Origin: a virus
Taxonomy: Duplodnaviria > Heunggongvirae > Uroviricota > Caudoviricetes
Length of the DNA stretch: 11,809 bases
Direction: 5' to 3' (one strand)
IMG/VR virus record: IMGVR_UViG_2563366941_000003
Positions within the stretch are counted from its first letter, which is position 1; each line of letters starts with the position of its first letter. Under the pieces are notes generated by a model. It made no database searches, was not told the origin of the DNA, and worked only from the letters and a program-made list of their open reading frames with translations. Made by a program: the position numbers and the translations under genes. Shown piece by piece: positions 1-11,809 of the stretch.

Positions 1-128
1 AACTGCAGTTGCCATGTTTTACGGCAGTGAGAGCAGAGATAGCGCTGATGTCCGGCGGTGCTTTTGCCGTTACGCACCACCCCGTCAGTAGCTGAACAGG
101 AGGGACAGCTGATAGAAACAGAAGCCAC
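1..128 (-). CDS. insA: IS1 InsA (transposition regulator / transposase N-terminal part), 5' portion only; 3' end lies outside the window
   Basis: GTG start at 126-128 (minus). Translation [42 protein letters not shown]... matches the InsA zinc-finger N-terminus as I recall it. Confidence 0.8.
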
Positions 129-183
129 TGGAGCACCTCAAAAACACCATCATACACTAAATCAGTAAGTTGGCAGCATCACC
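1..183 (-). mobile_element. IS1 insertion sequence, terminal 183 bp including the ~23-bp terminal inverted repeat (element continues beyond window start)
   Basis: Reverse complement of 1-183 reads GGTGATGCTGCCAACTTACTGATTTAGTGTATGATGG...GTGGCTTCTGTTTCTATCAGCTGTCCC, which I recognise as the IS1 end and insA start. Identity asserted from memory, not from a search. Confidence 0.85.
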
Positions 184-228
184 GAGGCCATCTTCACTAA
201 AAATTTCACGTAATTCTTCGATTTTCAT
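184..228 (-). pseudogene. 5' fragment (15 codons, MKIEELREIFSEDGL) of a gene interrupted by the IS1 insertion
   Basis: ATG at 226-228 (minus) preceded by a GGAAGGA Shine-Dalgarno ~9 nt upstream. The frame runs straight into the IS1 inverted repeat and stops 8 codons inside IS1. Identity of the disrupted gene unknown. Confidence 0.35.
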
Positions 229-354
229 CAACAGAATCCTTCCAGATAAATAGCACTCCCCCTGTTCGGGGTCCATCCCTCTTCTCCCTGCGCGCTACTT
301 AAGTATTTTTGATTCTATTCTGGCACCGTCCAAAACTTCAAACACGTTGAAAAT

Positions 355-382
355 AAAAACAAAAAACCCGCCGAAGCGGGTA
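355..382 (-). terminator. Rho-independent terminator of the two-gene cassette
   Basis: Minus-strand RNA ACCCGC-UUCG-GCGGGU hairpin (GC stem, UUCG tetraloop) followed by a U6 run, 4 nt after the stop of the 386-1489 gene. Confidence 0.65.
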
Positions 383-385
383 TAC

Positions 386-1489
386 TCAAACAATCTGGAA
401 AATATTTCTTGGATTTGTAATAGGTCTGTTGATGGAGAACAACTCACGAATTAAATCTTGGCTCAAGCCAGTTTTCATAAGAATTCTTAGCCAGGTTGCA
501 TCATCCAGCATTTCAATCGCCTCGGCCAGCATGCCGGGTTCTTCAGGGCGCAAAAGTTCATCACCAGGTTCAACTCTCGTATACCCTCTGGAATTAAGAT
601 GCATATAGCCAGTTCTTGCCTGTTCCTGGGTCAATAAGCCTAATGCGCTGGCTCGATAAATACACATTTTAAGGCTGATTTTCCATCTAAGTTTAAATTC
701 AACCAGAGCATTCCAGTCGAATTGCTTACCTCGTATTCGTGGAAATTCTTTAATGAAAGATAACCTGGGAACTAATAAGGCGCTCGAAAAGTGATCGGCT
801 TGTGATTCCGTAAGTTTATCACCTGTCGTTATGCCCTCATGCATTACTAAATGCCCTAATTCATGACCTAAATCAGAGCGAAATCTACATATGCTTTTTT
901 TAACATTGTTCCTGATGATAACAGGCCTGTTATTGTGAACAGTAAAAGCATCAACACGATCATCGACTCCCGTAACATGCGCAACGATTACCCCTAAACT
1001 CTCCGCCAATTTAACCATTGATGATATAGGGCCAAGACCTAAATTCCAGGCACGGCGACAATCTTCTGCCACTCGCTCAATATCATTCGGAGTAAGTAAT
1101 TCAGCCCCTGGGTGCTCCGGTATGTTAACGTCAGGAAATTCGATTTCACCTTCAACAGCAGAAATTATAATATTAAGAATCTCAGCCCTGGCCAATACAC
1201 TATTAGTCAGCGTTTGAGTCCTGGACTTCTTACTCCGAAAATGGCAGACATCACTTTCCAGAGCGTATTTTCGTTCAGTAAAAAGAAAACTGGACTTAAT
1301 CATAAGCGCTGAAGATATTAACTCAAGACATTGCTCCGATGGCCTGCACCCCTTCTCCAGTTTGCTAACGAATTGCTTTGTCTTGCCAATTTTTTCGGCT
1401 AACTCTTCACAAGAAAGCCCAACAGCCATTCTCGCTAGTTTGAGCTTATCACCCCGATACTCAGTGAAGTTATTCACCTGATGTTCCAT
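386..1489 (-). CDS. Fusion protein: N-terminal XRE-family HTH + ImmA/IrrE-type (M78, COG2856-like) zinc metallopeptidase + ~130-aa C-terminal domain of unknown function
   Basis: ORF track 386..1492; ATG at 1487-1489 (GTG at 1490-1492 is an alternative). HTH-like segment LSCEELAEKIGKTKQFVSKLEKG near the N-terminus. HExxH zinc motif HELGHLVMH mid-protein. Overlaps the upstream gene by ~20 nt, suggesting translational coupling. Confidence 0.75.
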   Translation of the reverse strand: MEHQVNNFTEYRGDKLKLARMAVGLSCEELAEKIGKTKQFVSKLEKGCRPSEQCLELISSALMIKSSFLFTERKYALESDVCHFRSKKSRTQTLTNSVLARAEILNIIISAVEGEIEFPDVNIPEHPGAELLTPNDIERVAEDCRRAWNLGLGPISSMVKLAESLGVIVAHVTGVDDRVDAFTVHNNRPVIIRNNVKKSICRFRSDLGHELGHLVMHEGITTGDKLTESQADHFSSALLVPRLSFIKEFPRIRGKQFDWNALVEFKLRWKISLKMCIYRASALGLLTQEQARTGYMHLNSRGYTRVEPGDELLRPEEPGMLAEAIEMLDDATWLRILMKTGLSQDLIRELFSINRPITNPRNIFQIV

Positions 1490-2120
1490 CACTGCTCACA
1501 TCCAAATCTTTATCCTTCGTACGCCGACGAAGAGGCACCTTATTAATCTCCGCTTCGTCAGGGAGTGTGTTATAATCAAGAGGCATAAGCGGCATCGATG
1601 CTGTAGATTGATGAGAAACTATACTAATCTGAGCACCATAAGTATTAAATCCAACAAGAGCTACCTCCCAACGAGGCAGTGTGGACTCTAATTCACCATC
1701 GCCCTCTTCGGATAAAAAAGGCTCAGCTATGACTCGCCATGTAATATCTTGCTCAGCCTCAACATCACCAAACAATGAGAGCTGCTCATACTCTACTTTA
1801 TTTCGACGCAGACGATGTTTCTTTTTGGGGTTATTAATGCAATCTTTGGTAAATTGTAGCGGAACTTTATTTAAAGCAACTACATAGTCCAACCCCTTGG
1901 AAATCATCTCAAGGCCAGGAATTGCATCTTCATTTTGAATAAGATGATTTCTGACCCAATCATAAGCCCTTACACCTTCAGACCAGTTGCTGTCTAATGC
2001 GTGCTTATGATAGTACAGCTGCTCAAGTACGTTAGCGATCTCCGCCAACAAGTGGCGAACATAGTTTTCAGCAAGATAAGGTTGAAATTCCCAACAAGGA
2101 GCTAACTGATTTTCATTCAT
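1470..2120 (-). CDS. Hypothetical 216-aa protein, first gene of the cassette; candidate toxin/effector partner of the HTH-peptidase
   Basis: ATG at 2118-2120, stop at 1470-1472. No motif I can recognise. Basic patch NPKKKHRLRRNK and an acidic C-terminal half. Read as coding from ORF length, overlap with the downstream gene and promoter/terminator context only. Confidence 0.65.
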   Translation of the reverse strand: MNENQLAPCWEFQPYLAENYVRHLLAEIANVLEQLYYHKHALDSNWSEGVRAYDWVRNHLIQNEDAIPGLEMISKGLDYVVALNKVPLQFTKDCINNPKKKHRLRRNKVEYEQLSLFGDVEAEQDITWRVIAEPFLSEEGDGELESTLPRWEVALVGFNTYGAQISIVSHQSTASMPLMPLDYNTLPDEAEINKVPLRRRTKDKDLDVSSDGTSGE

Positions 2121-2149
2121 TTCAAGTTTCGCTTTTTTTAGAATTCGTA

Positions 2150-2190
2150 AACCACATATTTTCGCATTTTTCTATTTTTGTCAACCAGAC
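2150..2190 (-). promoter_or_regulatory. Candidate sigma70 promoter for the two-gene cassette
   Basis: Minus-strand TTGACA (plus coordinates 2179-2184), 17-bp spacer, then AAATAT (2156-2161), ~35 nt upstream of the ATG at 2120. The -35 is perfect, the -10 is weak. Confidence 0.4.
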
Positions 2191-2195
2191 TAATG

Positions 2196-2217
2196 CAAAA
2201 ACCCGCCGAAGCGGGTT
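2196..2217 (-). terminator. Rho-independent terminator downstream of hok
   Basis: Same ACCCGC-UUCG-GCGGGU hairpin as at 355-382, followed by U5 on the minus strand. A further GC stem (about 2258-2281) lies in the hok 3' UTR. Confidence 0.6.
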
Positions 2218-2285
2218 AAGTGCGGGTGCGTTGAGGATGCCTGGCACATCAGAGGTGGCGGGAGATTACTCCCCCGCCGGGTCTC

Positions 2286-2441
2286 TTACTCCTCAGGTTC
2301 GTAAGCTGTGAAGACAGCGACCTCCGTCTGGCCGGTTCGGATTCGTACCTCGCAGAGGTCTTTCCTCGTTACCAGTGCCGTCACAATGACGGTTAAACAG
2401 ATGACGATCAGGGCGATTAACATCGCCTTTTGCTGCTTCAT
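2286..2441 (-). CDS. hokD: Hok/Gef-family type I toxin (51 aa membrane peptide)
   Basis: MKQQKAMLIALIVICLTVIVTALVTRKDLCEVRIRTGQTEVAVFTAYEPEE, with the Hok hallmark hydrophobic N-terminus and the LCEV...R..G..EVA.F.AY core. GGGGAA Shine-Dalgarno 8 nt upstream. Closest to HokD/RelF as I recall it; family assignment is firm, paralog less so. An in-frame upstream ATG at 2496-2498 gives the 70-aa track ORF (mok-like leader frame). Confidence 0.85.
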   Translation of the reverse strand: MKQQKAMLIALIVICLTVIVTALVTRKDLCEVRIRTGQTEVAVFTAYEPEE

Positions 2442-2678
2442 AGCCTGCTTCCCCTTGCCTTTCGGCACGTAAGAGGCTAACCTACATTTGTGAGACATAG
2501 ATTGGGCCTCAGATTAATGTTAAGCGTCTTGCAGGACGCGAAATGTTAACTGGGGCTTTTCTCTATCTGCCTTTCAGTGTTCATGCCTGAGACAGATAGC
2601 CTCAAGCACCCGCAGCCATTCTACTTAACTCACGTCACCTCGCCAATATGAAATCAATCAGAAAGGTGATCCATAAAA

Positions 2679-3365
2679 TCACTCCTTCTCTTCTTTTCCG
2701 TAGTGGAGTTGGCCAATTTTGATAAGAGGGCGTCCCTGAGATTTGCGGTGTAGATTGGTATCGCGCAGAGAATACACACAGCCACAATATTCCTGCTGAT
2801 AGAATTTTTCGCGCTTGCTGATTTCAATCATACGGGACGAGCCGCCCTGCTTGCGCCAGTTATAATCCCAGTACACCATACCCGGATAATGCGCAACAGC
2901 TCGCCGCCCACACTCGTTAACCTGCTGCATATTTTTCCAGCGTGAAATGCCCAGTGAACTGCTGATCACACTGAAACCATTTTCAGCAGCGTACAACGCT
3001 GTCCGCTCAAAACGCATGTCAAAACACATGGTACAACGGATCCCCCTCTCAGGCTCCCATTCCATTCCTTTGGCACGTTCAAACCAGTTGTCGGTGTCGT
3101 AATCAGCATCGATAAACGGCACGCCGTGTTGTTCAGCAAAGCGAATATTTTCATCCTTACGAATTAAATACTCTTTCTGAGGATGAATGTTCGGGTTGTA
3201 GAAAAAGATGGTGTAGTCGATTCCCGAGGCCTGAAGCGCCTCCATCACTTCACCGGAACATGGAGCACAGCAAGAGTGCAGTAGTAGTTTGTTTGCCCCG
3301 TTTGGGAGCTCCAATTTAGGCCGTTTGAAATCAGCAATAGTCATAAATATTTTTATTGGGGTCAT
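2679..3365 (-). CDS. queH: QueH-like (DUF208) epoxyqueuosine reductase homolog
   Basis: N-terminal [11 protein letters not shown] signature plus CTMCFDMRF and EYCGC cysteine motifs typical of DUF208/QueH Fe-S proteins. Start ambiguous between ATG 3363-3365 and ATG 3342-3344; neither has a clear Shine-Dalgarno. Confidence 0.65.
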
Positions 3366-3518
3366 GAAAATAGCACAGAGTGTAGCATCAGAGCAGGGCT
3401 ATCGGGAATATATGTCTAAATCTGGTAATATCTGGTTTTGACGCAAAGCGGACAACCACGCTGGCTCTACCCTGCGCCATGAAAATGTCAATTCACATCT
3501 GAACTAATGCTCTTTAAT

Positions 3519-3944
3519 CTAGTAACGTCTAAAATACCTAACATTTCCTTGATAAAATGCCAGTACACGCTGCATAGCTTCGCTCTTCCGGCACTCGCGA
3601 CAGATTATATTCAGGCGCCTGTCGTAGCGGCGTATTTCGCCGTCTGGTAACGACCAGATAAGGTCCGGATCAACCACTGCAGGTTTCTTCACCTTTGCCC
3701 TTGAGAGTTTTTTGCGAGCATTTTGCCAGTCCTTACGCGCCTGTTCAGACGGGAATAACCCGTAACCAGAGTTGTATACATCGCCACTGGCAACCAGCTC
3801 TCTGGCGAGAACACTCATCAGATATCTTGTCGCACCTGTCTTGGCTTCCAGTTGCCGCAACGTCTCGCGACCGCTCAGACGTACAAGTTCAACAACCTGC
3901 CCTTTAATTTTTTCCCGCTCTTCTTGTGTAAATACTTTTGCCAT
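3519..3944 (-). CDS. Hypothetical phage protein (141 aa), possible DNA-binding fold
   Basis: ATG at 3942-3944 with GGAGG Shine-Dalgarno 6 nt upstream; the track start at 3959 is a TTG. Immediately follows the stop of the upstream gene (3960-3962). No recognised motif. Confidence 0.55.
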   Translation of the reverse strand: MAKVFTQEEREKIKGQVVELVRLSGRETLRQLEAKTGATRYLMSVLARELVASGDVYNSGYGLFPSEQARKDWQNARKKLSRAKVKKPAVVDPDLIWSLPDGEIRRYDRRLNIICRECRKSEAMQRVLAFYQGNVRYFRRY

Positions 3945-3959
3945 AAGCGCCTCCGGCAA

Positions 3960-4730
3960 TCACTTTTCCGATACAACACGGCGGGAAGAATCAGTAATCT
4001 GTCGAACAATATCCCGGTGCTTGTTCAGCTCCCGCAGCGCGGCGCAGACTCGCTCCCACTTCTGAACATCACTTTTCGCCCTGCGCAGCGCCAGGTTTGC
4101 CCTGCGAAGGGACGGAAAAATCAGCTCATCTGCTTGCGTTTCGGTAAACGATGGCAACGGCTGCACAATGTCCGCCACAGTTTCTGTTTTAATTTCTTCC
4201 TGTGTTGCGGCTTCCCGGACTGGTAACGCAGCACCTGCTGGCTGAGGAAAGGCCTTACCATCACTTTCCGTTACCAGCGCGGCTTTCGGCTCTGCTGGTA
4301 AATTATCGCCCGGCATGCAGTAACGAAATTTACCGTTCTGATTAACGCGTGCCAGCCGCCCCGTTGCGGTTACCACCGCCAGCGTGGAAGCAACCTTGCG
4401 AGTACTGACACCGAACTTACCCGCCAGTTCCTCACACGTTTTAGCCCCATCCTGACCGATAAACTCAATCATCATGTCTGCGGTAACTTTTTGTTCGACC
4501 TCCCCGGTCAGCATATCCTGTGCTTCAGATTTTACTGGCCGCTCTTCGGTTACCCGGGATTCACCTTCGCCAGCCAGAAACCAGGTGTGACCAGTTTTAT
4601 CAACGACGCCTTTTCTTTTGAGTTCCCACAGCTCGTTGAGAACCTCTTCACGACTGATATCAAGTCGCGCGGCCAGTTCTACCGATGTGGCTTTTCCCAT
4701 TGCTTTCAGTGCGTCAAATACGGTTTCCAT
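3960..4730 (-). CDS. Hypothetical prophage protein with two winged-helix-like repeats
   Basis: ATG at 4728-4730 with GGAGG Shine-Dalgarno 8 nt upstream; the track start at 4748 is a TTG. Two internally similar HTH-like segments (around [28 protein letters not shown] and [22 protein letters not shown]). Confidence 0.6.
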
Positions 4731-4763
4731 TAAAATTTCCTCCGACAAAATCGTTTCTCAGAT

Positions 4764-5429
4764 TCAAATAAAACCAGCTGCCTTCCGGCGTTCGTATTCC
4801 TGTTTCAGCCGTTCAATTGGCGTTGGCCCTTGCGGGTGTTTCGCCCCTTCCAGTTGTCGTCGCACTGGCGGAACACTCATCCCGTTACCAACATGCTTTG
4901 CCCATTTCGTCAGTTGCCGTTCCGCAAGTCGTTTTAACTCACCCTGCGTCATCTGGCGCTCAATCCCTCTGGTACGCATTTCGAGGCAGATGTGGTACAG
5001 CACAGGCTGAGGCCACGGATATTTGTCGCTTCCGTCATATCGCCAGGACTCATCACGCCAGCGGCGGTACTCCTCCATCACAGCATCCACCGTCAGGCCA
5101 AATGGATTGGCCCCGCTTTCTGAAATCAGCGCCACAAACTCAGCCAGGTCCGGAGGCCATGTTTCACCCGCCCGGCAGCGGTCCATGCACTGGCGGCAGA
5201 CCTGTCGGATTTGCTGCTCAGTCATCGCGCCAATCTGTGCAATCCAGAGCTTCGAAGGTGCGGCCCCGTTCTTCTGGGTCCAGCGGTTCGAATAAACCTC
5301 CCCCATGAGTTCCCACAGCTTCCAGACCGTTTCCGTCGCTGATAAATCCGTTTTCACGTTCCCACTGCTCACGTGCTGCCCGAATTTCCTGAACTGCCCG
5401 TGATGCGGTGCCACCTGGTGCTGCTGCAT
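4764..5429 (-). CDS. Lambda P-like replication protein (DnaB helicase loader)
   Basis: Recalled lambda P aligns over MTEQQIRQV..., WPPDLAEFVALISE and YPWPQPVLYHI. Strong AAGGGGG Shine-Dalgarno 6 nt upstream of the ATG at 5427-5429. Confidence 0.75.
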   Translation of the reverse strand: MQQHQVAPHHGQFRKFGQHVSSGNVKTDLSATETVWKLWELMGEVYSNRWTQKNGAAPSKLWIAQIGAMTEQQIRQVCRQCMDRCRAGETWPPDLAEFVALISESGANPFGLTVDAVMEEYRRWRDESWRYDGSDKYPWPQPVLYHICLEMRTRGIERQMTQGELKRLAERQLTKWAKHVGNGMSVPPVRRQLEGAKHPQGPTPIERLKQEYERRKAAGFI

Positions 5430-6258
5430 GGTTTACCCCCTTGCTGACTGGCTTAACCTGCGCCCTGACGTGATTTACGTGACGGGCGAATTTCTGCTCC
5501 CACTGAACCTGCGTGAAAACTTTCCCCTCCGCTGCCCAGTAGTCCCGGAAAGCGGCAAGTTCAGCAGGTGTAAATTCCGGCTCCGGCAAAGCCATCCCCC
5601 ACAACGCAGCCCGTCGTCGAAAATCCGGCGACGGATGCCAGTCATCGACCATCGGAAATTTCCCGATGGGTTCGCTCAGTCCATCCAGGGATGCAGGTTC
5701 TGCTGCCTGCAACGGCGTACCACTCGACTCACTGGTCGGAGCACTCTCGCGCACGTGCGCGTTATGTGTGGGGTTTAATTCTTTATCTGTATCTTTATCT
5801 GTCGTGACTCGTCGTGACATGTCGTGACATATGCGTGACTCGTCGTGACACCCCTCATTCTGTTTTCGTAATTTTTCCCTCTCGCGCTGCGCTCTCTTGC
5901 GCTCTGCCGGGGATTTCGCGGTTTGTGAAACGTTGCCATTGTCCTCTTTCAGTACCTGGCGTTTTTCCCATCCGGTGATTAAATCTCCATCAAGTACCCG
6001 CCCCTGCATTGCCTGTAAAATTGAATCAATTACTTCTTCCGTCACATCAAGCGCACTTGCTAAATCTTCCGTCGTGACATCAATGTGACCACGTAGTGAC
6101 ACGCCGTGACATGTCGTGACATTTCGTGACGCGCTCACCAGAAGGTGGATATACACTGCCATCACTGTTGCAATTGGCTGCCCTGACACCCTGGCAATTG
6201 TTCGCCACTTAGGGTCATTTGGCATGTCATGCCATAATCTGAGCCAGGCGTTAGCCAT
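5218..6258 (-). CDS. Replication initiator (O-like): N-terminal replisome-organiser domain + DnaT-like C-terminal domain; 3' end uncertain
   Basis: ATG at 6256-6258 with GAGGTG Shine-Dalgarno; GTG at 6262-6264 is the track start. C-terminal segment GKFPMVDDWHPSPDFRRRAALWGMALPEPEFTPAELAAFRDYWAAEGKVFTQVQWEQKFARHV closely matches the E. coli DnaT C-terminal region as I recall it. The open frame runs 212 nt past the P start. Confidence 0.7.
   Translation of the reverse strand: MANAWLRLWHDMPNDPKWRTIARVSGQPIATVMAVYIHLLVSASRNVTTCHGVSLRGHIDVTTEDLASALDVTEEVIDSILQAMQGRVLDGDLITGWEKRQVLKEDNGNVSQTAKSPAERKRAQREREKLRKQNEGCHDESRICHDMSRRVTTDKDTDKELNPTHNAHVRESAPTSESSGTPLQAAEPASLDGLSEPIGKFPMVDDWHPSPDFRRRAALWGMALPEPEFTPAELAAFRDYWAAEGKVFTQVQWEQKFARHVNHVRAQVKPVSKGVNHAAAPGGTASRAVQEIRAAREQWERENGFISDGNGLEAVGTHGGGLFEPLDPEERGRTFEALDCTDWRDD
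5801..5850. repeat. Iteron cluster 1: five GTGAC-core repeats at 10-11 bp spacing, flanked by an AT-richer tract (5776-5800); candidate replication origin inside the initiator gene
   Basis: GTGAC at 5804, 5814, 5824, 5835, 5845. Lies in the linker region of the O-like gene, as lambda ori does; the AT-richer tract is on the P-proximal side. Confidence 0.6.
6071..6130. repeat. Iteron cluster 2: six GTGAC-core repeats at 10-11 bp spacing within the 5' part of the initiator gene
   Basis: GTGAC at 6074, 6085, 6096, 6106, 6116, 6126. Same core and phasing as cluster 1, about 220 bp away. Confidence 0.45.
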
Positions 6259-6329
6259 ACTCACCTCTTCTGATACCGAATCTTTTTACTCACAAATTGC
6301 CGGAAGTGATCCGGTATGAATATTGCGAG

Positions 6330-6755
6330 TCAATGCACAGCCACAATATTTCCTGCAGGGCCACCACGATTCATCTGGTTGAAACCAGCGATCGCCACTG
6401 CGACAAAATCATCAGCGTCTCTCACCAGTCGTTCCCGCGTCTCCACCAGCTCCCGAAAATAAGCTGAACTGTGGCTGCGCATTCGGGCCACCAGCAGAGG
6501 CGGCATTGCTTTTTCGATCGCTGGTAACAACGCCTGAATTTTTTTAACCGCATCAGGAGTGTCTTTCTCCACCCAGCGGAAAATTTTCTGGGTATTGCGA
6601 GCCAGGGCTTCCGGATGGCTGTCGTCATATAATTCCGGGAACGTCATACCAAGCTCAAAATAAGCCCGGGTTATTTCAGCTGCCGGAACTTTTTCACCGT
6701 CCGGATGCGCCCAGGCATTCATCGCCATGCGGATGTGCTCATGCCTGATTTTCAT
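6330..6755 (-). CDS. ydaT: YdaT-family protein (Rac prophage CII-like / toxic protein)
   Basis: MKIRHEHI... N-terminus and ...IVAVH C-terminus at ~140 aa match the YdaT family as recalled. Overlaps ydaS by 17 nt. GGAG Shine-Dalgarno. Confidence 0.7.
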   Translation of the reverse strand: MKIRHEHIRMAMNAWAHPDGEKVPAAEITRAYFELGMTFPELYDDSHPEALARNTQKIFRWVEKDTPDAVKKIQALLPAIEKAMPPLLVARMRSHSSAYFRELVETRERLVRDADDFVAVAIAGFNQMNRGGPAGNIVAVH

Positions 6756-7014
6756 GAATCAACTCCGATGCATTTGGTGTGTTAGCCTTGAATCCAACAG
6801 GTAAGCCGTCGGTTGGATTCGGGTAAATATCAGGCCGGAGTTCATGAGGTGTAACCTCGAAATTCGTTACTTCAGCAACACGTAATGCTTTTTCAGGGCT
6901 GAATCTTTCATAGCCCCCCAGCACTCGACTTACATGCACCTGAGATAAACCCGTTAGCTTCCCAAACTGTAGCTGGGTGATATGTTTCTCTTTTAAATAG
7001 TCTCTTAAGTTCAT
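6739..7014 (-). CDS. ydaS: YdaS-family Cro-like HTH regulator
   Basis: ATG at 7012-7014 with AAGG Shine-Dalgarno; the track start at 7020 is TTG. HTH segment QLQFGKLTGLSQVHVSRVL. ELRPDI motif shared with K-12 YdaS as recalled. Divergent from the repressor gene. Confidence 0.7.
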   Translation of the reverse strand: MNLRDYLKEKHITQLQFGKLTGLSQVHVSRVLGGYERFSPEKALRVAEVTNFEVTPHELRPDIYPNPTDGLPVGFKANTPNASELIHENQA

Positions 7015-7121
7015 AGCCAACCTTCTACGTTATGCCTCGAGCAAATATTAGCCCTGCTAATTTTAAAGATCAATAGCCAGACTATCTTTGATAATATTGG
7101 TAAAACAAATAAACTCTATGT
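7015..7121. promoter_or_regulatory. Divergent promoter/operator region of the immunity switch
   Basis: 107-bp AT-rich intergenic region between the divergent cro-like and repressor genes. Inverted repeats TTAGC-N3-GCTAA (about 7048-7060) and AAAGAT-N13-ATCTTT (about 7065-7089). racR ATG has no Shine-Dalgarno, possibly a leaderless transcript. Confidence 0.4.
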
Positions 7122-7583
7122 ATGAAAAAAACACGCGAAGTGATTGCAACTCCAGAAGCGAGCAAGAATTTAAAAGCCGCATGGAATGCAAGAAAAAAAG
7201 AGCTGAAGCTGACTCAAGAGCTGGCGGCTGAGTTGTTGGGATTCGAATCTCAAGGCACCGTTAGCCAGTATCTGAACGGCAAGATACCGGTAAATACCGA
7301 CGCTGCGCTAAAATTTGCGGCTCTGTTAAAGGTAAAACCAGAGGACATTCGAGAAGACCTTAAAGACTTAATGAATTATGTAAGATCATCAGATACTTAT
7401 GATGATAACTTTTCAGGCAAAGGATGGAGGCTGGTCAATGAAGAACAGGCAGAGTTACTTAACCTCTTCGAGATTCTACCTGCGTCAGAAAAAGCCAAAC
7501 TCCTTAACCAGCTACGTGGACTAAACAAGCTCTACGAGGAAGCCTTCGAGAACATGCTGGCACTAAAGAAACGTAACCAGTAG
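7122..7583 (+). CDS. racR: RacR-like prophage repressor (XRE-family HTH)
   Basis: HTH segment LTQELAAELLGFESQGTVSQYL. Position and orientation match racR relative to ydaS/ydaT in Rac. 153 aa with no S24 peptidase domain. Symbol assigned by synteny plus family resemblance. Confidence 0.6.
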   Translation: MKKTREVIATPEASKNLKAAWNARKKELKLTQELAAELLGFESQGTVSQYLNGKIPVNTDAALKFAALLKVKPEDIREDLKDLMNYVRSSDTYDDNFSGKGWRLVNEEQAELLNLFEILPASEKAKLLNQLRGLNKLYEEAFENMLALKKRNQ

Positions 7584-7609
7584 CCACCGCTCACTACCCC
7601 ATCCACAAC

Positions 7610-7640
7610 AAAAAAACCGACGTCTTAGTCGGTTTTTTTG
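7610..7640 (+). terminator. Rho-independent terminator after racR (potentially bidirectional)
   Basis: A-run, CCGAC-GTCTTA-GTCGG hairpin, then T7 (7633-7639). Confidence 0.7.
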
Positions 7641-7736
7641 TGCCATAACTTCTGCAAATCAGCTGTATAACTAATATTTTTCCCTTGAAAAAACATTTAC
7701 ATAGTTACCAAATCAAAAATATCATACGCCATACTG

Positions 7737-7765
7737 TTGACTTAAAATATCCGCGTTACTAATAT
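7737..7765 (+). promoter_or_regulatory. Candidate sigma70 promoter for the plus-strand early operon
   Basis: TTGACT (7737-7742), 17-bp spacer, TAATAT (7760-7765), about 70 nt upstream of the ATG at 7837. Confidence 0.5.
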
Positions 7766-7836
7766 TTCTATCAAGAACAGCACGGCGCTGTAGGTTTTAG
7801 TTCCGCCACCCGGCGTTAAGGGGAAATGAGGTCAGC

Positions 7837-7992
7837 ATGGATACTATCGAGCTTGGCAACAACGAATCTCTGGTGTACGGCGTGTTTCCCAACCAGGACG
7901 GCACATTCACCGCGATGACGTATACCAAAAGCAAAACGTTTAAAACCGAAAATGGTGCCCGTCGCTGGCTGGAAAGAAACTCAGGTGAGTGA
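7837..7992 (+). CDS. Small protein (51 aa), YdaF/YdaG-like Rac early protein
   Basis: Not in the ORF track (below 60 aa). ATG 7837 with GAGG Shine-Dalgarno 5 nt upstream. Translation MDTIELGNNESLVYGVFPNQDGTFTAMTYTKSKTFKTENGARRWLERNSGE; stop TGA 7990-7992. Size and position match the small genes next to racR in Rac. Confidence 0.5.
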   Translation: MDTIELGNNESLVYGVFPNQDGTFTAMTYTKSKTFKTENGARRWLERNSGE

Positions 7993-7993
7993 T

Positions 7994-8122
7994 ATGGATT
8001 TCGACACAATCATGGAAAAGGCTTACGAAGAATACTTCGATGGTCTTGCCGAAGGCGAAGAAGCTCTCAGCTTCAGTGAATTTAAACAGGCGCTTTCCAG
8101 TTCGGGAAAATCTAACGGCTGA
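7994..8122 (+). CDS. Small protein (42 aa), YdaF/YdaG-like Rac early protein
   Basis: ATG 7994, one nt after the upstream stop (coupled). Translation MDFDTIMEKAYEEYFDGLAEGEEALSFSEFKQALSSSGKSNG; stop TGA 8120-8122. Confidence 0.45.
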   Translation: MDFDTIMEKAYEEYFDGLAEGEEALSFSEFKQALSSSGKSNG

Positions 8123-8151
8123 TAAGCGAAACAGCACCGCGAGGAATCAGT

Positions 8152-8370
8152 ATGCAGAAACGAGAACCCGTCATCATCGCGCCAGACTATACCGATGATG
8201 AACTTTATGAGTGGATGCGCCAGAAAATTAATGCAGTGCAGGATCTGAAATGGGCCAATGAAGCCAGGACTAAGCAGGCTGAAAATCTGTCCGCTCTGGA
8301 GCAGGATATCACCAGGCTGGAAAAAGCAGCGGCATTAAGCATTGCCAGAATGGTTACATACCCACGTTAA
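8152..8370 (+). CDS. Hypothetical protein (72 aa)
   Basis: ATG 8152 with GAGGAA Shine-Dalgarno 5-6 nt upstream; hydrophilic with a predicted helical C-terminal half. No family recognised. Confidence 0.55.
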   Translation: MQKREPVIIAPDYTDDELYEWMRQKINAVQDLKWANEARTKQAENLSALEQDITRLEKAAALSIARMVTYPR

Positions 8371-8392
8371 TAGCTAACCAACGAGGCTAATA

Positions 8393-8794
8393 ATGGAATT
8401 TAAAGATTTACCAATGCCATTCCAGGAAATGGCAGCGAATGTGGTTCGCTCTCAACTGGCGACTCTTGACCTGAGTACTGTAGAAAAGGAAACCATCGAT
8501 ACTATATCCGGTAACGTGCGTCGTGCCTTTATAGGTCTGTATGAAGAGAAGCGCCTATTCGGCGGACAGAATTCGCCTGAAAACAAGAATCAAGCAAATG
8601 ATGAGAAGCTGAAACACATTATCGCCTTACTTTTGGAAGACGCAAAACGTCTACAGCAACTGGAACCAAATGCAGGCACAGAGGCCCGCATTTGGATTGC
8701 CATGAAATCACTCAAATGTGAAAGCAGTGATTATTTCAAAACAACAATTAAAACTACTCAACTTTCGGGAGAGCTACTGAAGAAATTGCCATAA
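8393..8794 (+). CDS. Hypothetical protein (133 aa), AT-rich gene
   Basis: ATG 8393 with GAGG Shine-Dalgarno 6 nt upstream. No family recognised. Visibly AT-richer than the flanks (by eye). Confidence 0.55.
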   Translation: MEFKDLPMPFQEMAANVVRSQLATLDLSTVEKETIDTISGNVRRAFIGLYEEKRLFGGQNSPENKNQANDEKLKHIIALLLEDAKRLQQLEPNAGTEARIWIAMKSLKCESSDYFKTTIKTTQLSGELLKKLP

Positions 8795-9032
8795 GAGCAT
8801 GGTCTTTCTCTTGTTCTGCAAGATGAGCATTAATACCTGGTATGGTTTTTTCAAATTTATCTATCTGTTGAATAACAACTTCGCGGTATACGTTTGTTTT
8901 TGTACCACCAAGCGCAGCCGTTAATGCAGAAAGCATATTTAGTATCATATCAGTGCGATATGAAAGAATCCTGATAGCTTCATCTTGTTCTTCAATAATA
9001 GATTGCAGGGCCTCAATTTGCTTTTTATCCAT
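8754..9032 (-). CDS. Hypothetical protein (92 aa), convergent with and overlapping the 3' end of the 133-aa gene
   Basis: ATG 9030-9032 with AGGAGG Shine-Dalgarno 5 nt upstream; the track start at 9071 is GTG. Helical/coiled-coil-like N-terminus MDKKQIEALQSIIEEQDEAIRIL. The 3' end overlaps the 8393-8794 gene by 41 nt. Confidence 0.5.
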   Translation of the reverse strand: MDKKQIEALQSIIEEQDEAIRILSYRTDMILNMLSALTAALGGTKTNVYREVVIQQIDKFEKTIPGINAHLAEQEKDHALMAISSVALPKVE

Positions 9033-9603
9033 TTCACCCTCCTGAGGGTTGGTAATTAAGGAGTTCTCCACTGGTCAGGTGGAGTGCGTGCGCCGGACAC
9101 GGGTGAGCATCCGGCACTGACAGTTTACTGAAAGGATATGTCCCTGAAAAGTCAGGGCATAACGCGAAAGCGCACGGCGAAATTGGTCTCTCTGTACGGT
9201 GTCGTTAAATTTAGTTCGACCGTGCGCTTCCGGTTGTGGCACTCCGCGAAATGGCGCGGCGGTAAGTATGGCTGGGGTTTCCTCCATTGCTCCAGAAAAT
9301 GCACCGGGTTGTCAGGTTGACCATACGCTTAAGTGACAACCCCGCTACAACGCCCTCTGTTATCAATTTTCTGGTGACATTTGGCGGTATCAGTTTTACT
9401 CCGTGACTGCTCTGCCGCCCTTTTTAAAGTGAATTTTGTGATGCGGTGAATGCGGCTATGCGCACGCGGAACAGTTAAAGCAGTAAGGCGGTATTTTACG
9501 GGCGTAACGAGCATCAACTAACCCGGCGTTAATTGTTAACTGGTTAACGTCACCTGGAGGCACCAGGCACTGCATCACAAAATTCATTGTTGAGGACGCG
9601 ATA

Positions 9604-9792
9604 ATGGAAACGTTATTACCAAACGTTAATACGTCTGAAGGTTGTTTTGAAATTGGTGTCACTATCAGTAACCCTGTATTTACTGAAGATGCCATTAACA
9701 AGAGAAAACACGAACGGGAGTTATTAAATAAAATATGCATTCTTTCAATGCTGGCCCGTTTACGTCCGATACAAAAAGGATGTGCACAATGA
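9604..9792 (+). CDS. Hypothetical small protein (62 aa), in the position occupied by kil-type genes in Rac/lambda
   Basis: ATG 9604 with GAGG Shine-Dalgarno 8 nt upstream. Stop overlaps the next start (ATGA at 9789-9792). Function assigned by position only. Confidence 0.45.
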   Translation: METLLPNVNTSEGCFEIGVTISNPVFTEDAINKRKHERELLNKICILSMLARLRPIQKGCAQ

Positions 9793-9980
9793 ATACAGCA
9801 TTTGCACTTGTTCTGACAGTTTTTCTTGTTTCCGGAGAGCCAGTTGATATTGCAGTCAGTGTTCACAGGACAATGCAGGAGTGTATGACTGCAGCAACCG
9901 AACAGAAAATTCCCGGTAACTGTTACCCGGTCGATAAAGTTATTCACCAGGATAATAACGAAATCCCGGCAGGTCTTTAA
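9789..9980 (+). CDS. Small secreted/membrane protein (63 aa) with N-terminal signal-peptide-like segment
   Basis: ATG 9789 overlaps the upstream stop. MNTAFALVLTVFLVSGEPV hydrophobic leader followed by a Cys-containing hydrophilic tail. The track's 81-aa ORF includes an unlikely upstream extension. Confidence 0.5.
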   Translation: MNTAFALVLTVFLVSGEPVDIAVSVHRTMQECMTAATEQKIPGNCYPVDKVIHQDNNEIPAGL

Positions 9981-10072
9981 AACAGTTCCGTAATAAATAT
10001 CCGGTTTCATTCTTATATGCCAGCAATGGCAGGGATTTGTTCACCCTTAAATCTGTAATGAGGTAAAACAAA

Positions 10073-11809
10073 ATGAGTAAAGTCTTTATTTGCGCCGCCA
10101 TTCCGGACGAACAGGCAATAAAGGAAGAAGGTGCAGTCGCTGTAGCCACTGCCATTGAAGCCGGTGATGAACGTCGCGCCCGCGCAAAATTTCACTGGCA
10201 ATTCCTGGAACATTATCCGGCTGCTCAGGACTGCGCTTATAAATTTCTTGTCTGCGAGGATAAACCCGGTATACCCCGCCCTGCCCTAGATTCCTGGGAT
10301 GCTGAATATATGCAGGAAAACCGCTGGGATGAGGCGTCTGCTTCCTTTGTCCCGGTTGAGACTGAATCAGATCCGATGAACGTCACTTTTGACAAGCTGG
10401 CCCCTGAAGTACAGAACGCTGTCATGGTTAAGTTCGACACATGTGAAAACATCACCGTTGATATGGTGATTAGCGCGCAGGAACTGTTGCAGGAAGACAT
10501 GGCAACATTCGACGGACATATCGTTGAAGCGTTGATGAAAATGCCAGAAGTTAACGCCATGTATCCGGAGCTTAAGCTGCATGCCATCGGGTGGGTTAAG
10601 CATAAATGTAAGCCTGGTGCCAAATGGCCCGAAATTCAGGCAGAGATGCGCATCTGGAAAAAACGTCGCGAAGGTGAACGCAAGGAAGCCGGAAAATACA
10701 CGTCTGTTGTTGATCTCGCCCGCGCCAGAGCCAATCAACAGCACACTGAAAATTCAACAGGAAAAATCAACCCGGTCATTGCTGCCATTCATCGCGAATA
10801 CAAGCAGACATGGAAAACACTGGATGACGAACTGGCCTACGCTCTCTGGCCTGGTGATGTGGATGCCGGAAACATTGACGGCAGCATCCATCGCTGGGCA
10901 AAAAATGAAGTTATCGACAACGACCGCGAAGACTGGAAGCGTATCTCGGCATCAATGCGCAAACAGCCTGATGCCCTTCGCTACGACCGCCAGACTATTT
11001 TTGGCCTTGTCCGTGAACGTCCGATCGACATTCACAAAGACCCTGTGGCACTGAACAAATACATTACTGAATACCTGACTACAAAGGGCGTGTTTGAAGA
11101 TGAAGGAACAAATCAGAGCGCAACTGATACTCTCTCGTCGCCAGTACCAGAAACTGATGCAGTGGAAACGGCAATTCCGGACAACGAAAAAACCGAATGC
11201 AAAGTGGAAGTCGAACCATCTGTAGAACGTGAGGGGCCGTTCTACTTCCTCTTCACCGACAAGGATGGCGAAAAATACGGTCGCGCAAACAAACTTTCTG
11301 GTCTGGATAAGGCGCTGTCTGCTGGGGCTACTGAAATCACGAAAGAAGAATATTTCGCCCGCAAAAACGGTACATACTCAGGTTCACAACAAAATACTGG
11401 TGCATCTGACACGACCGCACAACCAGGGTCAGTAAAAGTTACCGCTGACGAAGTAAACAAAATTATGCAGGCAGCCAATATCAGCCAGCCTGACGCCGAT
11501 GAACTGCTTGCAGTATCACGTGGTGAATTTGTTGAAGGGATTAGCGACCCGAATGATCCGAAATGGGTTAAGGGGAACCAGACCCGCGATTCTGTGAACC
11601 AGAACCAGCAAGAAACGGAACAGAACGACCAGAAAGCGGAACAAAACAGCCCAAATGCGTTACAAAACGAGCCAGAAACGAAACAGCCTGAATCAGTGGC
11701 GCAACAGGAAGTGGAAAAAGTCTGCACCGCCTGCGGTCAGACCGGCGGCGGCAACTGCCCTGATTGTGGCGCGGTAATGGGCGACGCAACATACCAGGAA
11801 ACATTCGAT
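10073..11809 (+). CDS. recE: RecE-like exodeoxyribonuclease VIII, N-terminal 579 codons (3' end beyond window)
   Basis: ATG 10073 with an in-frame TAA 9 nt upstream and GAGG Shine-Dalgarno. Frame open to the last base of the window; missed by the ORF track because there is no stop. Segments LLAVSRGEFVEGISDPNDPKWVKG and C..C...NCPDCGAVMGDATYQETFD match the non-catalytic region of Rac RecE as I recall it. The N-terminal ~400 aa differ from K-12 RecE. Confidence 0.6.
   Translation, partial: MSKVFICAAIPDEQAIKEEGAVAVATAIEAGDERRARAKFHWQFLEHYPAAQDCAYKFLVCEDKPGIPRPALDSWDAEYMQENRWDEASASFVPVETESDPMNVTFDKLAPEVQNAVMVKFDTCENITVDMVISAQELLQEDMATFDGHIVEALMKMPEVNAMYPELKLHAIGWVKHKCKPGAKWPEIQAEMRIWKKRREGERKEAGKYTSVVDLARARANQQHTENSTGKINPVIAAIHREYKQTWKTLDDELAYALWPGDVDAGNIDGSIHRWAKNEVIDNDREDWKRISASMRKQPDALRYDRQTIFGLVRERPIDIHKDPVALNKYITEYLTTKGVFEDEGTNQSATDTLSSPVPETDAVETAIPDNEKTECKVEVEPSVEREGPFYFLFTDKDGEKYGRANKLSGLDKALSAGATEITKEEYFARKNGTYSGSQQNTGASDTTAQPGSVKVTADEVNKIMQAANISQPDADELLAVSRGEFVEGISDPNDPKWVKGNQTRDSVNQNQQETEQNDQKAEQNSPNALQNEPETKQPESVAQQEVEKVCTACGQTGGGNCPDCGAVMGDATYQETFD

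What the first reader, a model, noticed from the sequence alone, without database searches (positions are those of the whole stretch)
2679..3365. Prophage-borne QueH-like epoxyqueuosine reductase
The cysteine signature [11 protein letters not shown] plus CTMCFD and EYCGC identifies a DUF208/QueH-type Fe-S protein. Enterobacteria normally use QueG for this step, so a queH-like gene inside a lambdoid prophage is an accessory metabolic gene. It could modify host tRNA queuosine status during infection or lysogeny. There are no accompanying queC/D/E or tgt-like genes in the window, so a DNA 7-deazaguanine modification pathway is not supported here.
Basis: partly seen in the sequence, partly recalled or inferred. 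Interest (0 to 1): 0.45.

Follow-up and report, generated by a model that had tools for sequence, protein, structure and literature searches.

The report
Prophage-carried QueH tRNA queuosine reductase
This is an intact, ordinary copy of QueH, the vitamin-B12-independent enzyme that finishes the tRNA base queuosine, carried as cargo by a lambda-like prophage found in about one in five E. coli genomes; public databases already name it QueH, so it is real but not new.

Summary
The minus-strand ORF 2679-3365 encodes a canonical QueH: Pfam PF02677 at 221 bits over the full profile, and all six family cysteines present. Its CCAPC motif is the family norm, and the best sequence and fold matches are T. 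maritima QueH. The real start is probably the ATG at 3344 (221 aa), identical to RefSeq WP_000150294.1.

The gene sits in a Qin/Rac-like lambdoid prophage at ompW, directly after DUF977 and before hok/sok. It is in 995 of 5,426 complete E. coli genomes, all of which also keep host queG. Prophage alleles show dN/dS of about 0.05.

Its nearest relatives (85-91% identity) are ordinary chromosomal queH genes of Klebsiella, Enterobacter, Erwinia, Providencia and Proteus. This points to a captured housekeeping gene; an extended -10-like box lies upstream in both the prophage and the chromosomal loci.

The complete prophage has no tgt/dpdA/queACDEF gene, so DNA modification is not supported. The most likely role is cobalamin-independent reduction of epoxyqueuosine to queuosine in host tRNA, backing up B12-dependent QueG. 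That role is inferred, not shown.

RefSeq already annotates the gene as QueH, but PHROGs and phage annotations call it unknown. Interest is modest.

The parts
2679..3344 (-). queH coding sequence, most likely form (221 aa, identical to RefSeq WP_000150294.1, 'epoxyqueuosine reductase QueH'). The longest ORF extends to 3365 (228 aa).
   Evidence: ORF list. Pfam PF02677 at 221.5 bits. RefSeq annotation and start in L001 and L003. N-terminal alignment with chromosomal homologs. The extension is unconstrained. dN/dS is 0.05-0.07 among prophage alleles.
3255..3278 (-). Codons for HSCCAPCS (residues 30-37 of the 228-aa ORF). Cys32 and Cys33 correspond to T. maritima Cys9 and Cys10. Cys36 sits at the position of T. 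maritima Asp13.
   Evidence: HMMER alignment to 7lc5. Among diverse family representatives these columns are Cys in 70/74, 71/74 and 69/75 sequences. Deposited PDB variants C9S (9d86) and D13N (9dco) show these positions were probed.
3018..3038 (-). Codons for RCTMCFD (residues 110-116). Cys111 and Cys114 correspond to T. maritima Cys87 and Cys90 (CxxC motif).
   Evidence: alignment. Both columns are Cys in 81/83 representatives, and Arg110 is invariant in 83/83.
2778..2792 (-). Codons for EYCGC (residues 192-196). Cys194 and Cys196 correspond to T. maritima Cys169 and Cys171 (CxC motif).
   Evidence: alignment. Cys196 is Cys in 66/69 and Gly195 is Gly in 70/76 representatives. CGC is invariant in 32 close homologs.
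3345..3459 (-). Conserved 5' leader that travels with queH; this is the left part of the roughly 0.8-kb cassette. It has no Shine-Dalgarno sequence.
   Evidence: It is conserved in phage HannyBb although the upstream gene there is different (A1). In prophages without queH, homology ends at about 3431-3444. No Rfam match at E <= 1.
3379..3387 (-). Extended -10-like box TGCTACACT, a candidate own promoter about 35 nt upstream of ATG 3344.
   Evidence: The same position reads TGCTACAAT (L102), ACTACAAT (Enterobacter L099) and TGCTAAAAT (L013) in chromosomal loci whose surrounding sequence is otherwise not alignable (A5). The consensus promoter scan did not report it, so this is inference from conservation only.

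Best explanation
The gene encodes a catalytically competent QueH, the cobalamin-independent iron-sulfur epoxyqueuosine reductase. A lambdoid phage captured it from the chromosome of an Enterobacter/Klebsiella-like relative, and it is now carried as optional cargo directly after the replication-module gene DUF977. In the cell it would reduce epoxyqueuosine (oQ) at position 34 of tRNA-Asp, -Asn, -His and -Tyr to queuosine (Q). This is the same reaction as host QueG but without vitamin B12, which E. coli cannot make de novo. Lysogens therefore have two routes for the last step, and Q formation becomes independent of B12 supply.

Shown here: family membership, intact ligand residues, purifying selection, prophage location, coexistence with queG, and chromosomal origin. 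Inferred: enzymatic activity, expression in the lysogen from the conserved extended -10-like box and/or from early-operon read-through, and the B12-independence benefit.

The confidence of 0.6 is for the whole statement including the B12-back-up benefit. That the protein is a genuine, functional QueH I put at about 0.9.
For: Family membership: Pfam QueH at 221.5 bits over the full profile. All six family cysteines are present, plus Cys at the T. maritima Asp13 position, which is Cys in 69/75 diverse representatives. The best PDB sequence hits are T. maritima QueH at E 8e-22. An AlphaFold model (pLDDT 76) has T. maritima QueH as its top five Foldseek hits, with TM 0.70 on the target, well ahead of other AANH-fold enzymes.

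Selection: dN/dS is 0.046-0.067 among prophage alleles with dS up to 0.29. The protein is 100% identical in 80 of 80 retained IMG/VR loci.

Origin: the gene is 85-91% identical to chromosomal, non-phage queH genes of Enterobacter (L099), Erwinia (L010, between purL and glrK), Providencia (L004, next to tmcA/purC/bamC/dapA) and Photorhabdus.

Redundancy: queG is in 5,426 of 5,426 E. coli genomes and is intact in prophage-carrying strain VR50.

Literature: QueG and the last step of Q synthesis in E. coli depend on cobalamin (PMC4646009). QueH is described as cobalamin-independent (PMC5615194). Coexisting QueG and QueH with different cofactor needs are reported for S. aureus (PMC13443448).

Expression signals: the leader with an extended -10-like box is shared with chromosomal loci. 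No terminator-like site separates queH from the upstream early genes.
Against: There is no experimental evidence for this ortholog, and neither activity nor expression could be tested here. No Shine-Dalgarno sequence precedes either ATG. The promoter scan found no sigma-70 consensus promoter upstream. NCBIfam gave no hit. The structure model has only moderate confidence (pLDDT 76). It is not known whether oQ and Q differ in any way that affects E. coli fitness, so the selective benefit is conjecture. The gene borders a cargo slot rich in defence systems, which hints at a conflict-related role instead.
Confidence: 0.6

Rival explanations
1. The gene serves the phage rather than the lysogen. It is expressed with the early-right operon after induction and raises Q at the expense of oQ, tuning decoding of NAU/NAC codons (His, Asn, Asp, Tyr) in favour of phage genes or to reshape host responses.
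For: queH lies inside the early-right transcription unit, between the replication genes and Q, with no terminator-like site upstream. In Shewanella, phage infection induces queG, shifts oQ to Q, and Q favours NAU-rich genes (bioRxiv 10.64898/2026.03.05.709803). Prophage late genes are slightly richer in NAU codons than a host core sample: 0.574 against 0.526.
Against: The NAU difference is small and comes from one prophage compared with 44 host genes. Any decoding difference between oQ and Q is undocumented. Only one isolated phage in INPHARED carries a close copy. The conserved own-promoter-like box fits constitutive or lysogenic expression at least as well.
Confidence: 0.2
2. queH is a phage-host or phage-phage conflict gene. 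For example, it could alter tRNA anticodon chemistry to blunt Q34-directed anticodon nucleases or to handicap superinfecting phages, as part of the defence cargo slot it borders.
For: The slot after queH holds RosmerTA in this window (RmrA E 6e-105, RmrT E 5e-25), Kiwa and an NgoMIV-type restriction-modification pair. Across 80 IMG/VR loci with identical QueH the downstream cargo varies. In prophages without queH the same position holds other unknown two-gene cargo.
Against: QueH matches no PADLOC defence model. It is 85-91% identical to housekeeping chromosomal genes with non-defence neighbours. It is a single-gene cassette with no partner. Its position is fixed next to DUF977 while the defence cargo varies independently, which suggests neighbourhood rather than a functional unit.
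Confidence: 0.08
3. The gene contributes to 7-deazaguanine modification of phage DNA.
For: Phages commonly borrow Q-pathway genes (FolE, QueC/D/E, DpdA) for DNA modification (PMC6884629).
Against: No tgt/dpdA, folE or queA/C/D/E/F gene is annotated anywhere in the complete prophage from integrase to tail fibre, in the window, or in the 16.7-kb stretch of phage HannyBb that was examined. QueH acts after base insertion, on an epoxide known only in tRNA. Hutinet et al. found no QueA/QueG/QueH in their DNA-modifying viruses.
Confidence: 0.02
4. The gene is a neutral passenger, hitch-hiking with a successful prophage and not used.
For: No ribosome-binding site and no consensus promoter were found. 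Host QueG already performs the reaction.
Against: dN/dS of about 0.05 at dS up to 0.29 shows sustained purifying selection inside the prophage lineage. 985 of 995 genomes keep at least 80% of the gene. The cassette is retained across several downstream cargo configurations and in an isolated, viable phage.
Confidence: 0.05

Closest known systems
Thermotoga maritima QueH (PDB 7LC5/7LC7/9DEU), the structurally characterised epoxyqueuosine reductase
   Same: Same Pfam family. About 31% identity over the whole domain. Cys9/10, Cys87/90 and Cys169/171 are all conserved. It is the top fold match.
   Different: T. maritima has Asp at position 13, where this protein, like about 92% of diverse family members, has Cys. 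This protein also has about 20 extra residues at each end.
Chromosomal queH of Enterobacter/Klebsiella (87-91% identity) and of Erwinia, Providencia and Proteus (85-86%)
   Same: Near-identical length and sequence. An extended -10-like box sits at the same distance upstream in the Enterobacter-type loci L099, L102 and L013.
   Different: Those copies sit among housekeeping genes with no phage genes nearby. This one sits between DUF977 and hok inside a lambdoid prophage, and synonymous sites between them are saturated.
E. coli QueG (YjeS), the host's own epoxyqueuosine reductase
   Same: Same predicted reaction, oQ34-tRNA to Q34-tRNA. It coexists with queH in every queH-positive E. coli genome.
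   Different: The two are not homologous. QueG needs cobalamin plus two [4Fe-4S] clusters (PMC4646009), while QueH is cobalamin-independent (PMC5615194).
Organisms with both QueG and QueH: Staphylococcus aureus (PMC13443448) and Acinetobacter baylyi ADP1 (the latter from my memory of Zallot et al. 2017, not re-read here)
   Same: Two redundant last-step enzymes with different cofactor needs in one cell.
   Different: In those organisms both genes are chromosomal. Here the second enzyme arrives on a prophage and is present in only about 18% of strains.
Phage 7-deazaguanine DNA-modification clusters (DpdA with FolE/QueC/D/E)
   Same: They are viral carriage of queuosine-pathway genes.
   Different: There is no DpdA/Tgt and no preQ0-synthesis gene here. 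QueH is a tRNA-specific late step that was reported absent from those viruses.

Membership tests
QueH / DUF208 (Pfam PF02677) epoxyqueuosine reductase | Full-length match to the family profile above the curated threshold | tested here: met
   221.5 bits against a cut-off of 23.5, E 1.1e-65, profile positions 1-174 of 175.
QueH / DUF208 (Pfam PF02677) epoxyqueuosine reductase | Six conserved cysteines in three motifs (CC, CxxC, CxC) that hold the [4Fe-4S] cluster and the adjacent iron | tested here: met
   Cys32/33, Cys111/114 and Cys194/196 align with T. maritima Cys9/10, 87/90 and 169/171. The assignment of these residues to particular metal sites comes from my memory of Li et al. 2021, which could not be retrieved.
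QueH / DUF208 (Pfam PF02677) epoxyqueuosine reductase | Residue at the T. maritima Asp13 position, which depositors probed by a D13N mutant | tested here: met
   It is Cys36 here. The same column is Cys in 69 of 75 diverse representatives, and T. maritima's Asp is the exception. The D13N and C9S mutant entries are listed.
QueH / DUF208 (Pfam PF02677) epoxyqueuosine reductase | QueH fold (an adenine-nucleotide alpha-hydrolase-like Rossmann core) | tested here: met
   AlphaFold model with pLDDT 76.4 and pTM 0.76. The top five Foldseek PDB hits are T. maritima QueH, at E 4.5e-10 to 7e-9, TM 0.70-0.73 on the target and 0.55-0.58 on the query. The next hits (TtuA, LarE, argininosuccinate synthase) are at E 1e-5 or weaker. 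Model confidence is only moderate.
QueH / DUF208 (Pfam PF02677) epoxyqueuosine reductase | Converts oQ-tRNA to Q-tRNA (complements a queG deletion) without cobalamin | not testable with these tools
   This needs genetics plus LC-MS of tRNA nucleosides. Purifying selection (dN/dS 0.05) and 85-91% identity to housekeeping QueHs make it likely.
QueH / DUF208 (Pfam PF02677) epoxyqueuosine reductase | The substrate pathway (tgt, queA) is present in the same cell | not tested
   Only queG was checked directly. That tgt and queA are core E. coli genes is established knowledge (PMC5372724).
Phage 7-deazaguanine DNA modification system | DpdA/Tgt-like DNA transglycosylase encoded by the phage | tested here: not met
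   None is annotated in the complete VR50 prophage, and none is among the window's ten main ORFs by Pfam.
Phage 7-deazaguanine DNA modification system | preQ0 synthesis genes (folE, queD, queE, queC) encoded by the phage | tested here: not met
   Same evidence.
Known anti-phage defence systems (PADLOC-DB 2.0) | Match to a defence-protein model | tested here: not met
   QueH has 0 PADLOC families, while its neighbours RmrT and RmrA hit strongly.
Prophage moron / lysogenic-conversion cassette | Present or absent between otherwise related prophages at a fixed site | tested here: met
   DUF977 is in 4,093 genomes, and queH follows it in 975. Prophages without queH carry other cargo at that site. 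The cassette is shared with HannyBb in a different upstream context.
Prophage moron / lysogenic-conversion cassette | Own promoter and own terminator | tested here: inconclusive
   A conserved extended -10-like TGCTACACT is present, but there is no consensus promoter and no terminator-like site flanking queH.

The most novel reading that the evidence does not exclude
The prophage uses QueH to control the oQ-to-Q switch in the host's tRNA anticodons. This would be lysogenic conversion at the level of tRNA modification: it would change translation of NAU-rich genes, or the vulnerability of Q34 tRNAs to anticodon nucleases, as part of phage-host or phage-phage conflict. It would be the first phage-borne enzyme dedicated to the tRNA (not DNA) branch of the queuosine pathway, sitting at the edge of a defence cargo hotspot.
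Probability: 0.12. Interest if true: 0.65.

Novelty: already known. Interest (0 to 1): 0.27.

Why it matters
As an identification it adds little. RefSeq already names this exact protein QueH in about a thousand complete E. coli genomes, and the sequence is a canonical family member.

Its modest value lies elsewhere. About 18% of E. coli strains carry a second, B12-independent route for the last step of queuosine synthesis, delivered by a prophage. This makes strain-dependent Q/oQ status, and its dependence on cobalamin supply in the gut, directly testable.

It is also a counter-example to the statement that viruses carry no QueA/QueG/QueH. Phage-centred annotation hides it: PHROG 3217 is labelled 'unknown function', and phage HannyBb lists the gene as a hypothetical protein.

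Tried and rejected
- **NCBIfam:** no hit for QueH, although RefSeq names the protein. The name must come from another rule, and I did not resolve which.
- **Rfam:** nothing in the queH leader even at E <= 1, so no riboswitch or known RNA element. The gathering search of the whole window found only sok and DicF.
- **Promoter/terminator scan of 2100-4000:** no promoter upstream of queH on the minus strand, and no terminator between DUF977, queH and the hok promoter. The extended -10-like box is therefore based on conservation only.
- **PADLOC on QueH, DUF977 and DUF1627:** no credible defence match.
- **Papers not held:** Zallot 2017 (PMC5495094), Li 2021 (DOI and PMC8884141) and Miles 2011 (PMC3088584) could not be retrieved. 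Metal-site assignments and the A. baylyi double-mutant result therefore rest on my memory.
- **Literature searches for queH with prophage, phage or E. coli pathotypes:** they returned author-name artefacts or unrelated papers. No prior discussion of prophage-borne QueH was found in the held library.
- **NAU/NAC codon bias, prophage against host:** a small difference (0.574 against 0.526), judged inconclusive.
- **DNA-modification reading:** rejected after checking the complete prophage.
- **Distant 'phage' hits in INPHARED** (unannotated faecal contigs, and 280-kb 'Staphylococcus' and 330-380-kb 'Acinetobacter' phage records): not used as evidence for viral QueH, because they look like bacterial or unverified sequences.
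- **dS against chromosomal homologs:** saturated, so the capture could not be dated.

Full report
**1. The observation**

The window has a 228-codon ORF on the minus strand at exactly 2679-3365. Its translation contains the three quoted motifs: [17 protein letters not shown] and EYCGC.

The family assignment is not a matter of a few cysteines. The protein matches Pfam PF02677 (QueH) at 221.5 bits (cut-off 23.5, E 1.1e-65) over profile positions 1-174 of 175. The only solved structures it matches by sequence are T. maritima QueH entries, at E 8e-22 over residues 27-203. PHROGs places it in phrog_3217, labelled 'unknown function'. NCBIfam gave no hit.

**2. Ligand residues and fold**

I aligned the protein with T. 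maritima QueH and 82 representatives of 50%-identity clusters taken from an exhaustive HMMER search; that search found 4,774 family members at E <= 0.001. In this alignment Cys32/33, Cys111/114 and Cys194/196 coincide with T. maritima Cys9/10, Cys87/90 and Cys169/171.

The one apparent deviation is Cys36, where T. maritima has Asp13. This turns out to be the family norm: 69 of 75 sequences have Cys there, and T. maritima is the exception. The PDB holds C9S and D13N mutants of the T. maritima enzyme, which shows that these positions are considered functionally critical. The assignment of particular residues to the [4Fe-4S] cluster and the neighbouring iron is from my memory of Li et al. 2021, which I could not retrieve.

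An AlphaFold model built on 32 close homologs has moderate confidence (pLDDT 76, pTM 0.76). Its five best Foldseek hits in the PDB are all T. maritima QueH, with TM 0.70-0.73 normalised on the target. Other adenine-nucleotide alpha-hydrolase-fold enzymes follow at E-values at least a thousand-fold weaker.

**3. Start codon**

RefSeq starts the gene at the second ATG (window 3344, 221 aa, WP_000150294.1). I agree, for three reasons:
- The N-terminus from Met8 aligns with chromosomal homologs: [14 protein letters not shown] against Erwinia MTNPAFKRAKLELP.
- The seven extra codons differ at 4 of 6 residues between the window and phage HannyBb, against 7 of 221 for the rest of the protein.
- The upstream ATG is not an ATG in any chromosomal homolog.

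Neither ATG has a Shine-Dalgarno sequence.

**4. Genomic setting**

The window is 100% identical over 184-11809 to chromosomes of many E. coli strains. In strain VR50 the element is a complete lambdoid prophage at ompW. Its gene order is: integrase, excisionase, exonuclease, ydfD, dicB, (DicF), ydfC/B/A, repressor, YdaS, YdaT, a DnaT-like O protein, P, DUF1627, DUF977, queH, hokD, two cargo genes, DUF968, rusA, Q, a kinase/phosphatase pair, tRNAs, lysis genes, terminase, head and tail genes, and a truncated ompW at the far end.

Pfam and Rfam on the window agree with this picture.

**5. Distribution and linkage**

- queH is in 995 of 5,426 complete E. coli genomes, nearly always as a single chromosomal copy, and 985 genomes hold at least 80% of it.
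- 975 genomes have it directly downstream of DUF977. DUF977 itself is in 4,093 genomes.
- About 741 genomes have hok adjacent.
- IMG/VR holds at least 190 viral contigs with the gene. The 80 retained all encode a 100% identical protein.
- Only one isolated phage in INPHARED carries a close copy: Escherichia phage HannyBb, at 95% identity. It is annotated there as a hypothetical protein.
- The exact protein is on at least 1,000 contigs and is named 'MULTISPECIES: epoxyqueuosine reductase QueH [Enterobacteriaceae]'.

**6. Origin**

The nearest non-E. coli relatives are named QueH in other Enterobacterales. Identities to the window protein are: Klebsiella 90-91%, Enterobacter 87-90%, Erwinia 85.5%, Proteus and Providencia 85-86%, and Photorhabdus 80%.

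Where I examined the context, it was chromosomal and free of phage genes:
- Enterobacter ludwigii: on a 1.9-Mb contig.
- Erwinia: between purL and glrK/glrR/glnB.
- Providencia: beside tmcA, purC, bamC and dapA.
- Photorhabdus, and two unnamed 85-90% relatives.

So 'Enterobacteria use QueG' is true of E. coli but not of the order as a whole. The prophage gene looks like a captured housekeeping gene.

The captured unit is about 0.8 kb, roughly window 2671-3459. HannyBb shares just this segment although its upstream gene differs. Prophages without queH lose homology at about 3431-3444.

Outside the ORF, the only piece alignable with the chromosomal loci is a short box about 35 nt upstream of the start. 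It reads TGCTACACT in the prophage, TGCTACAAT or ACTACAAT in the Enterobacter-type loci, and TGCTAAAAT in L013. This has the form of an extended -10 promoter. It is an inference from conservation; the consensus scan did not call a promoter there.

**7. Is the gene maintained?**

Pairwise dN/dS among prophage alleles is 0.046-0.067, with dS up to 0.29 (window against HannyBb: 40 nucleotide differences but only 7 amino-acid differences). That is strong purifying selection within the prophage lineage and argues against a decaying passenger.

**8. Relation to the host pathway**

A queG fragment from VR50 matches all 5,426 genomes at 80% coverage or more, and queG is annotated intact in VR50 itself. 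Every queH-positive E. coli therefore has both reductases.

QueG is a cobalamin enzyme with two [4Fe-4S] clusters, and the last step of Q synthesis in E. coli and Salmonella was shown long ago to depend on cobamide (Payne et al. 2015, PMC4646009, citing Frey et al. 1988). QueH is described as cobalamin-independent (PMC5615194). In S. aureus, QueG and QueH coexist and are expressed differently, which the authors interpret as reflecting cofactor availability (PMC13443448).

E. coli cannot synthesise cobalamin de novo (general knowledge). The most economical functional reading is therefore a B12-independent back-up for oQ reduction in lysogens. This is inference: I have no activity or expression data.

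**9. Rival readings**

- **(a) Phage-benefit role during lytic growth.** The gene lies in the early-right unit with no upstream terminator. A 2026 preprint shows that in Shewanella, phage infection induces queG, shifts oQ to Q, and favours NAU-rich genes. However, the NAU enrichment of this prophage's late genes is slight (0.574 against 0.526).
- **(b) Conflict role.** The slot after queH holds varied defence cargo: RosmerTA in this window, Kiwa and an NgoMIV-type restriction-modification pair. The mix varies among loci with identical QueH. Against this, QueH matches no PADLOC model and is near-identical to housekeeping genes.
- **(c) DNA modification.** Rejected (section 4).
- **(d) Neutral passenger.** Contradicted by section 7.

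**10. Novelty and verdict**

The identification is correct but already public: RefSeq names this protein QueH in about a thousand complete genomes. I found no paper in the held library that discusses prophage-borne QueH. Hutinet et al. 2019 state that no QueA/QueG/QueH homologs were found in the viruses they analysed. The prophage location is thus an under-noticed fact rather than a new kind of system.

I rate it 'already known', with modest interest (0.27). The interest lies mainly in the testable prediction that about 18% of E. coli strains make Q independently of B12, and in the low-probability reading that a prophage manipulates the oQ/Q switch.

Noticed in passing
window 386-2120 (-): Two overlapping ORFs, 1470-2120 (216 aa) and 386-1492 (368 aa, HTH plus Peptidase_M78), match PADLOC RmrT (E 5e-25) and RmrA (E 6e-105). 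Together they form a RosmerTA anti-phage toxin-antitoxin system carried as prophage cargo downstream of hok.
   Followed up: partly
window 2286-2646 (-): A hok/sok type I toxin-antitoxin locus: a mok/hok ORF at 2286-2498 (Pfam HOK_GEF), an Rfam sok match at 2436-2611 (120 bits), a promoter-like site at 2646 to 2618 directly after the queH stop, and a terminator-like hairpin at 2217-2200.
   Followed up: partly
L014 6466-8105; L016 5896-7535; L015 5872-7882: The slot right after queH is a variable defence-cargo site. It holds Kiwa (KwaA E 1e-101, KwaB E 2e-159) in two genomes and a Dcm methyltransferase plus NgoMIV-type restriction enzyme in O157:H7 Z885. In the Kiwa loci the first ~100 nt of the hok locus remain before the insertion, and in L014 hokD lies about 3.3 kb further on. 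Among 80 IMG/VR loci, about 56 have hok, of which 7 also have RosmerTA genes, and 21 have the restriction-modification pair.
   Followed up: partly
L103 4124-6103; L104 4302-5489: In related prophages without queH, the position after DUF977 holds unknown two-gene modules with no PADLOC hit. One protein has a weak, sub-threshold HEPN/RES N-terminal domain match. These are possible uncharacterised defence cargo.
   Followed up: partly
window 9369-9420 (+): A DicF antisense sRNA (Rfam RF00039, 77 bits, full length) lies in the dicB/ydfD region of the prophage.
   Followed up: no
window 1-183: The best E. coli matches cover 184-11809 at 100% identity but not the first 183 bases. The window's left end therefore belongs to a different variant or junction than in the listed genomes.
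   Followed up: no
window 4764-5429 and 5218-6264 (-): The longest ORFs for the lambda-P-like and DnaT-like O-like replication genes overlap by about 210 nt. RefSeq uses a later start for P (462 nt), so the longest-ORF coordinates overstate P.
   Followed up: no
phrog_3217; L002 8001-8687: Phage-centred annotation does not recognise this gene. The PHROG family is labelled 'unknown function' and its profile begins at residue 41 of the ORF. Phage HannyBb lists the gene as a hypothetical protein.
   Followed up: yes
INPHARED records CAKLQH020000001.1, CAKLQF020000001.1, OR844989.1: 'Phage' records of 280-380 kb (Acinetobacter phage MD-2021a, Staphylococcus phage SA 1306 Kay) carry QueH homologs. 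They look like bacterial chromosome fragments or unverified bins rather than phages.
   Followed up: no
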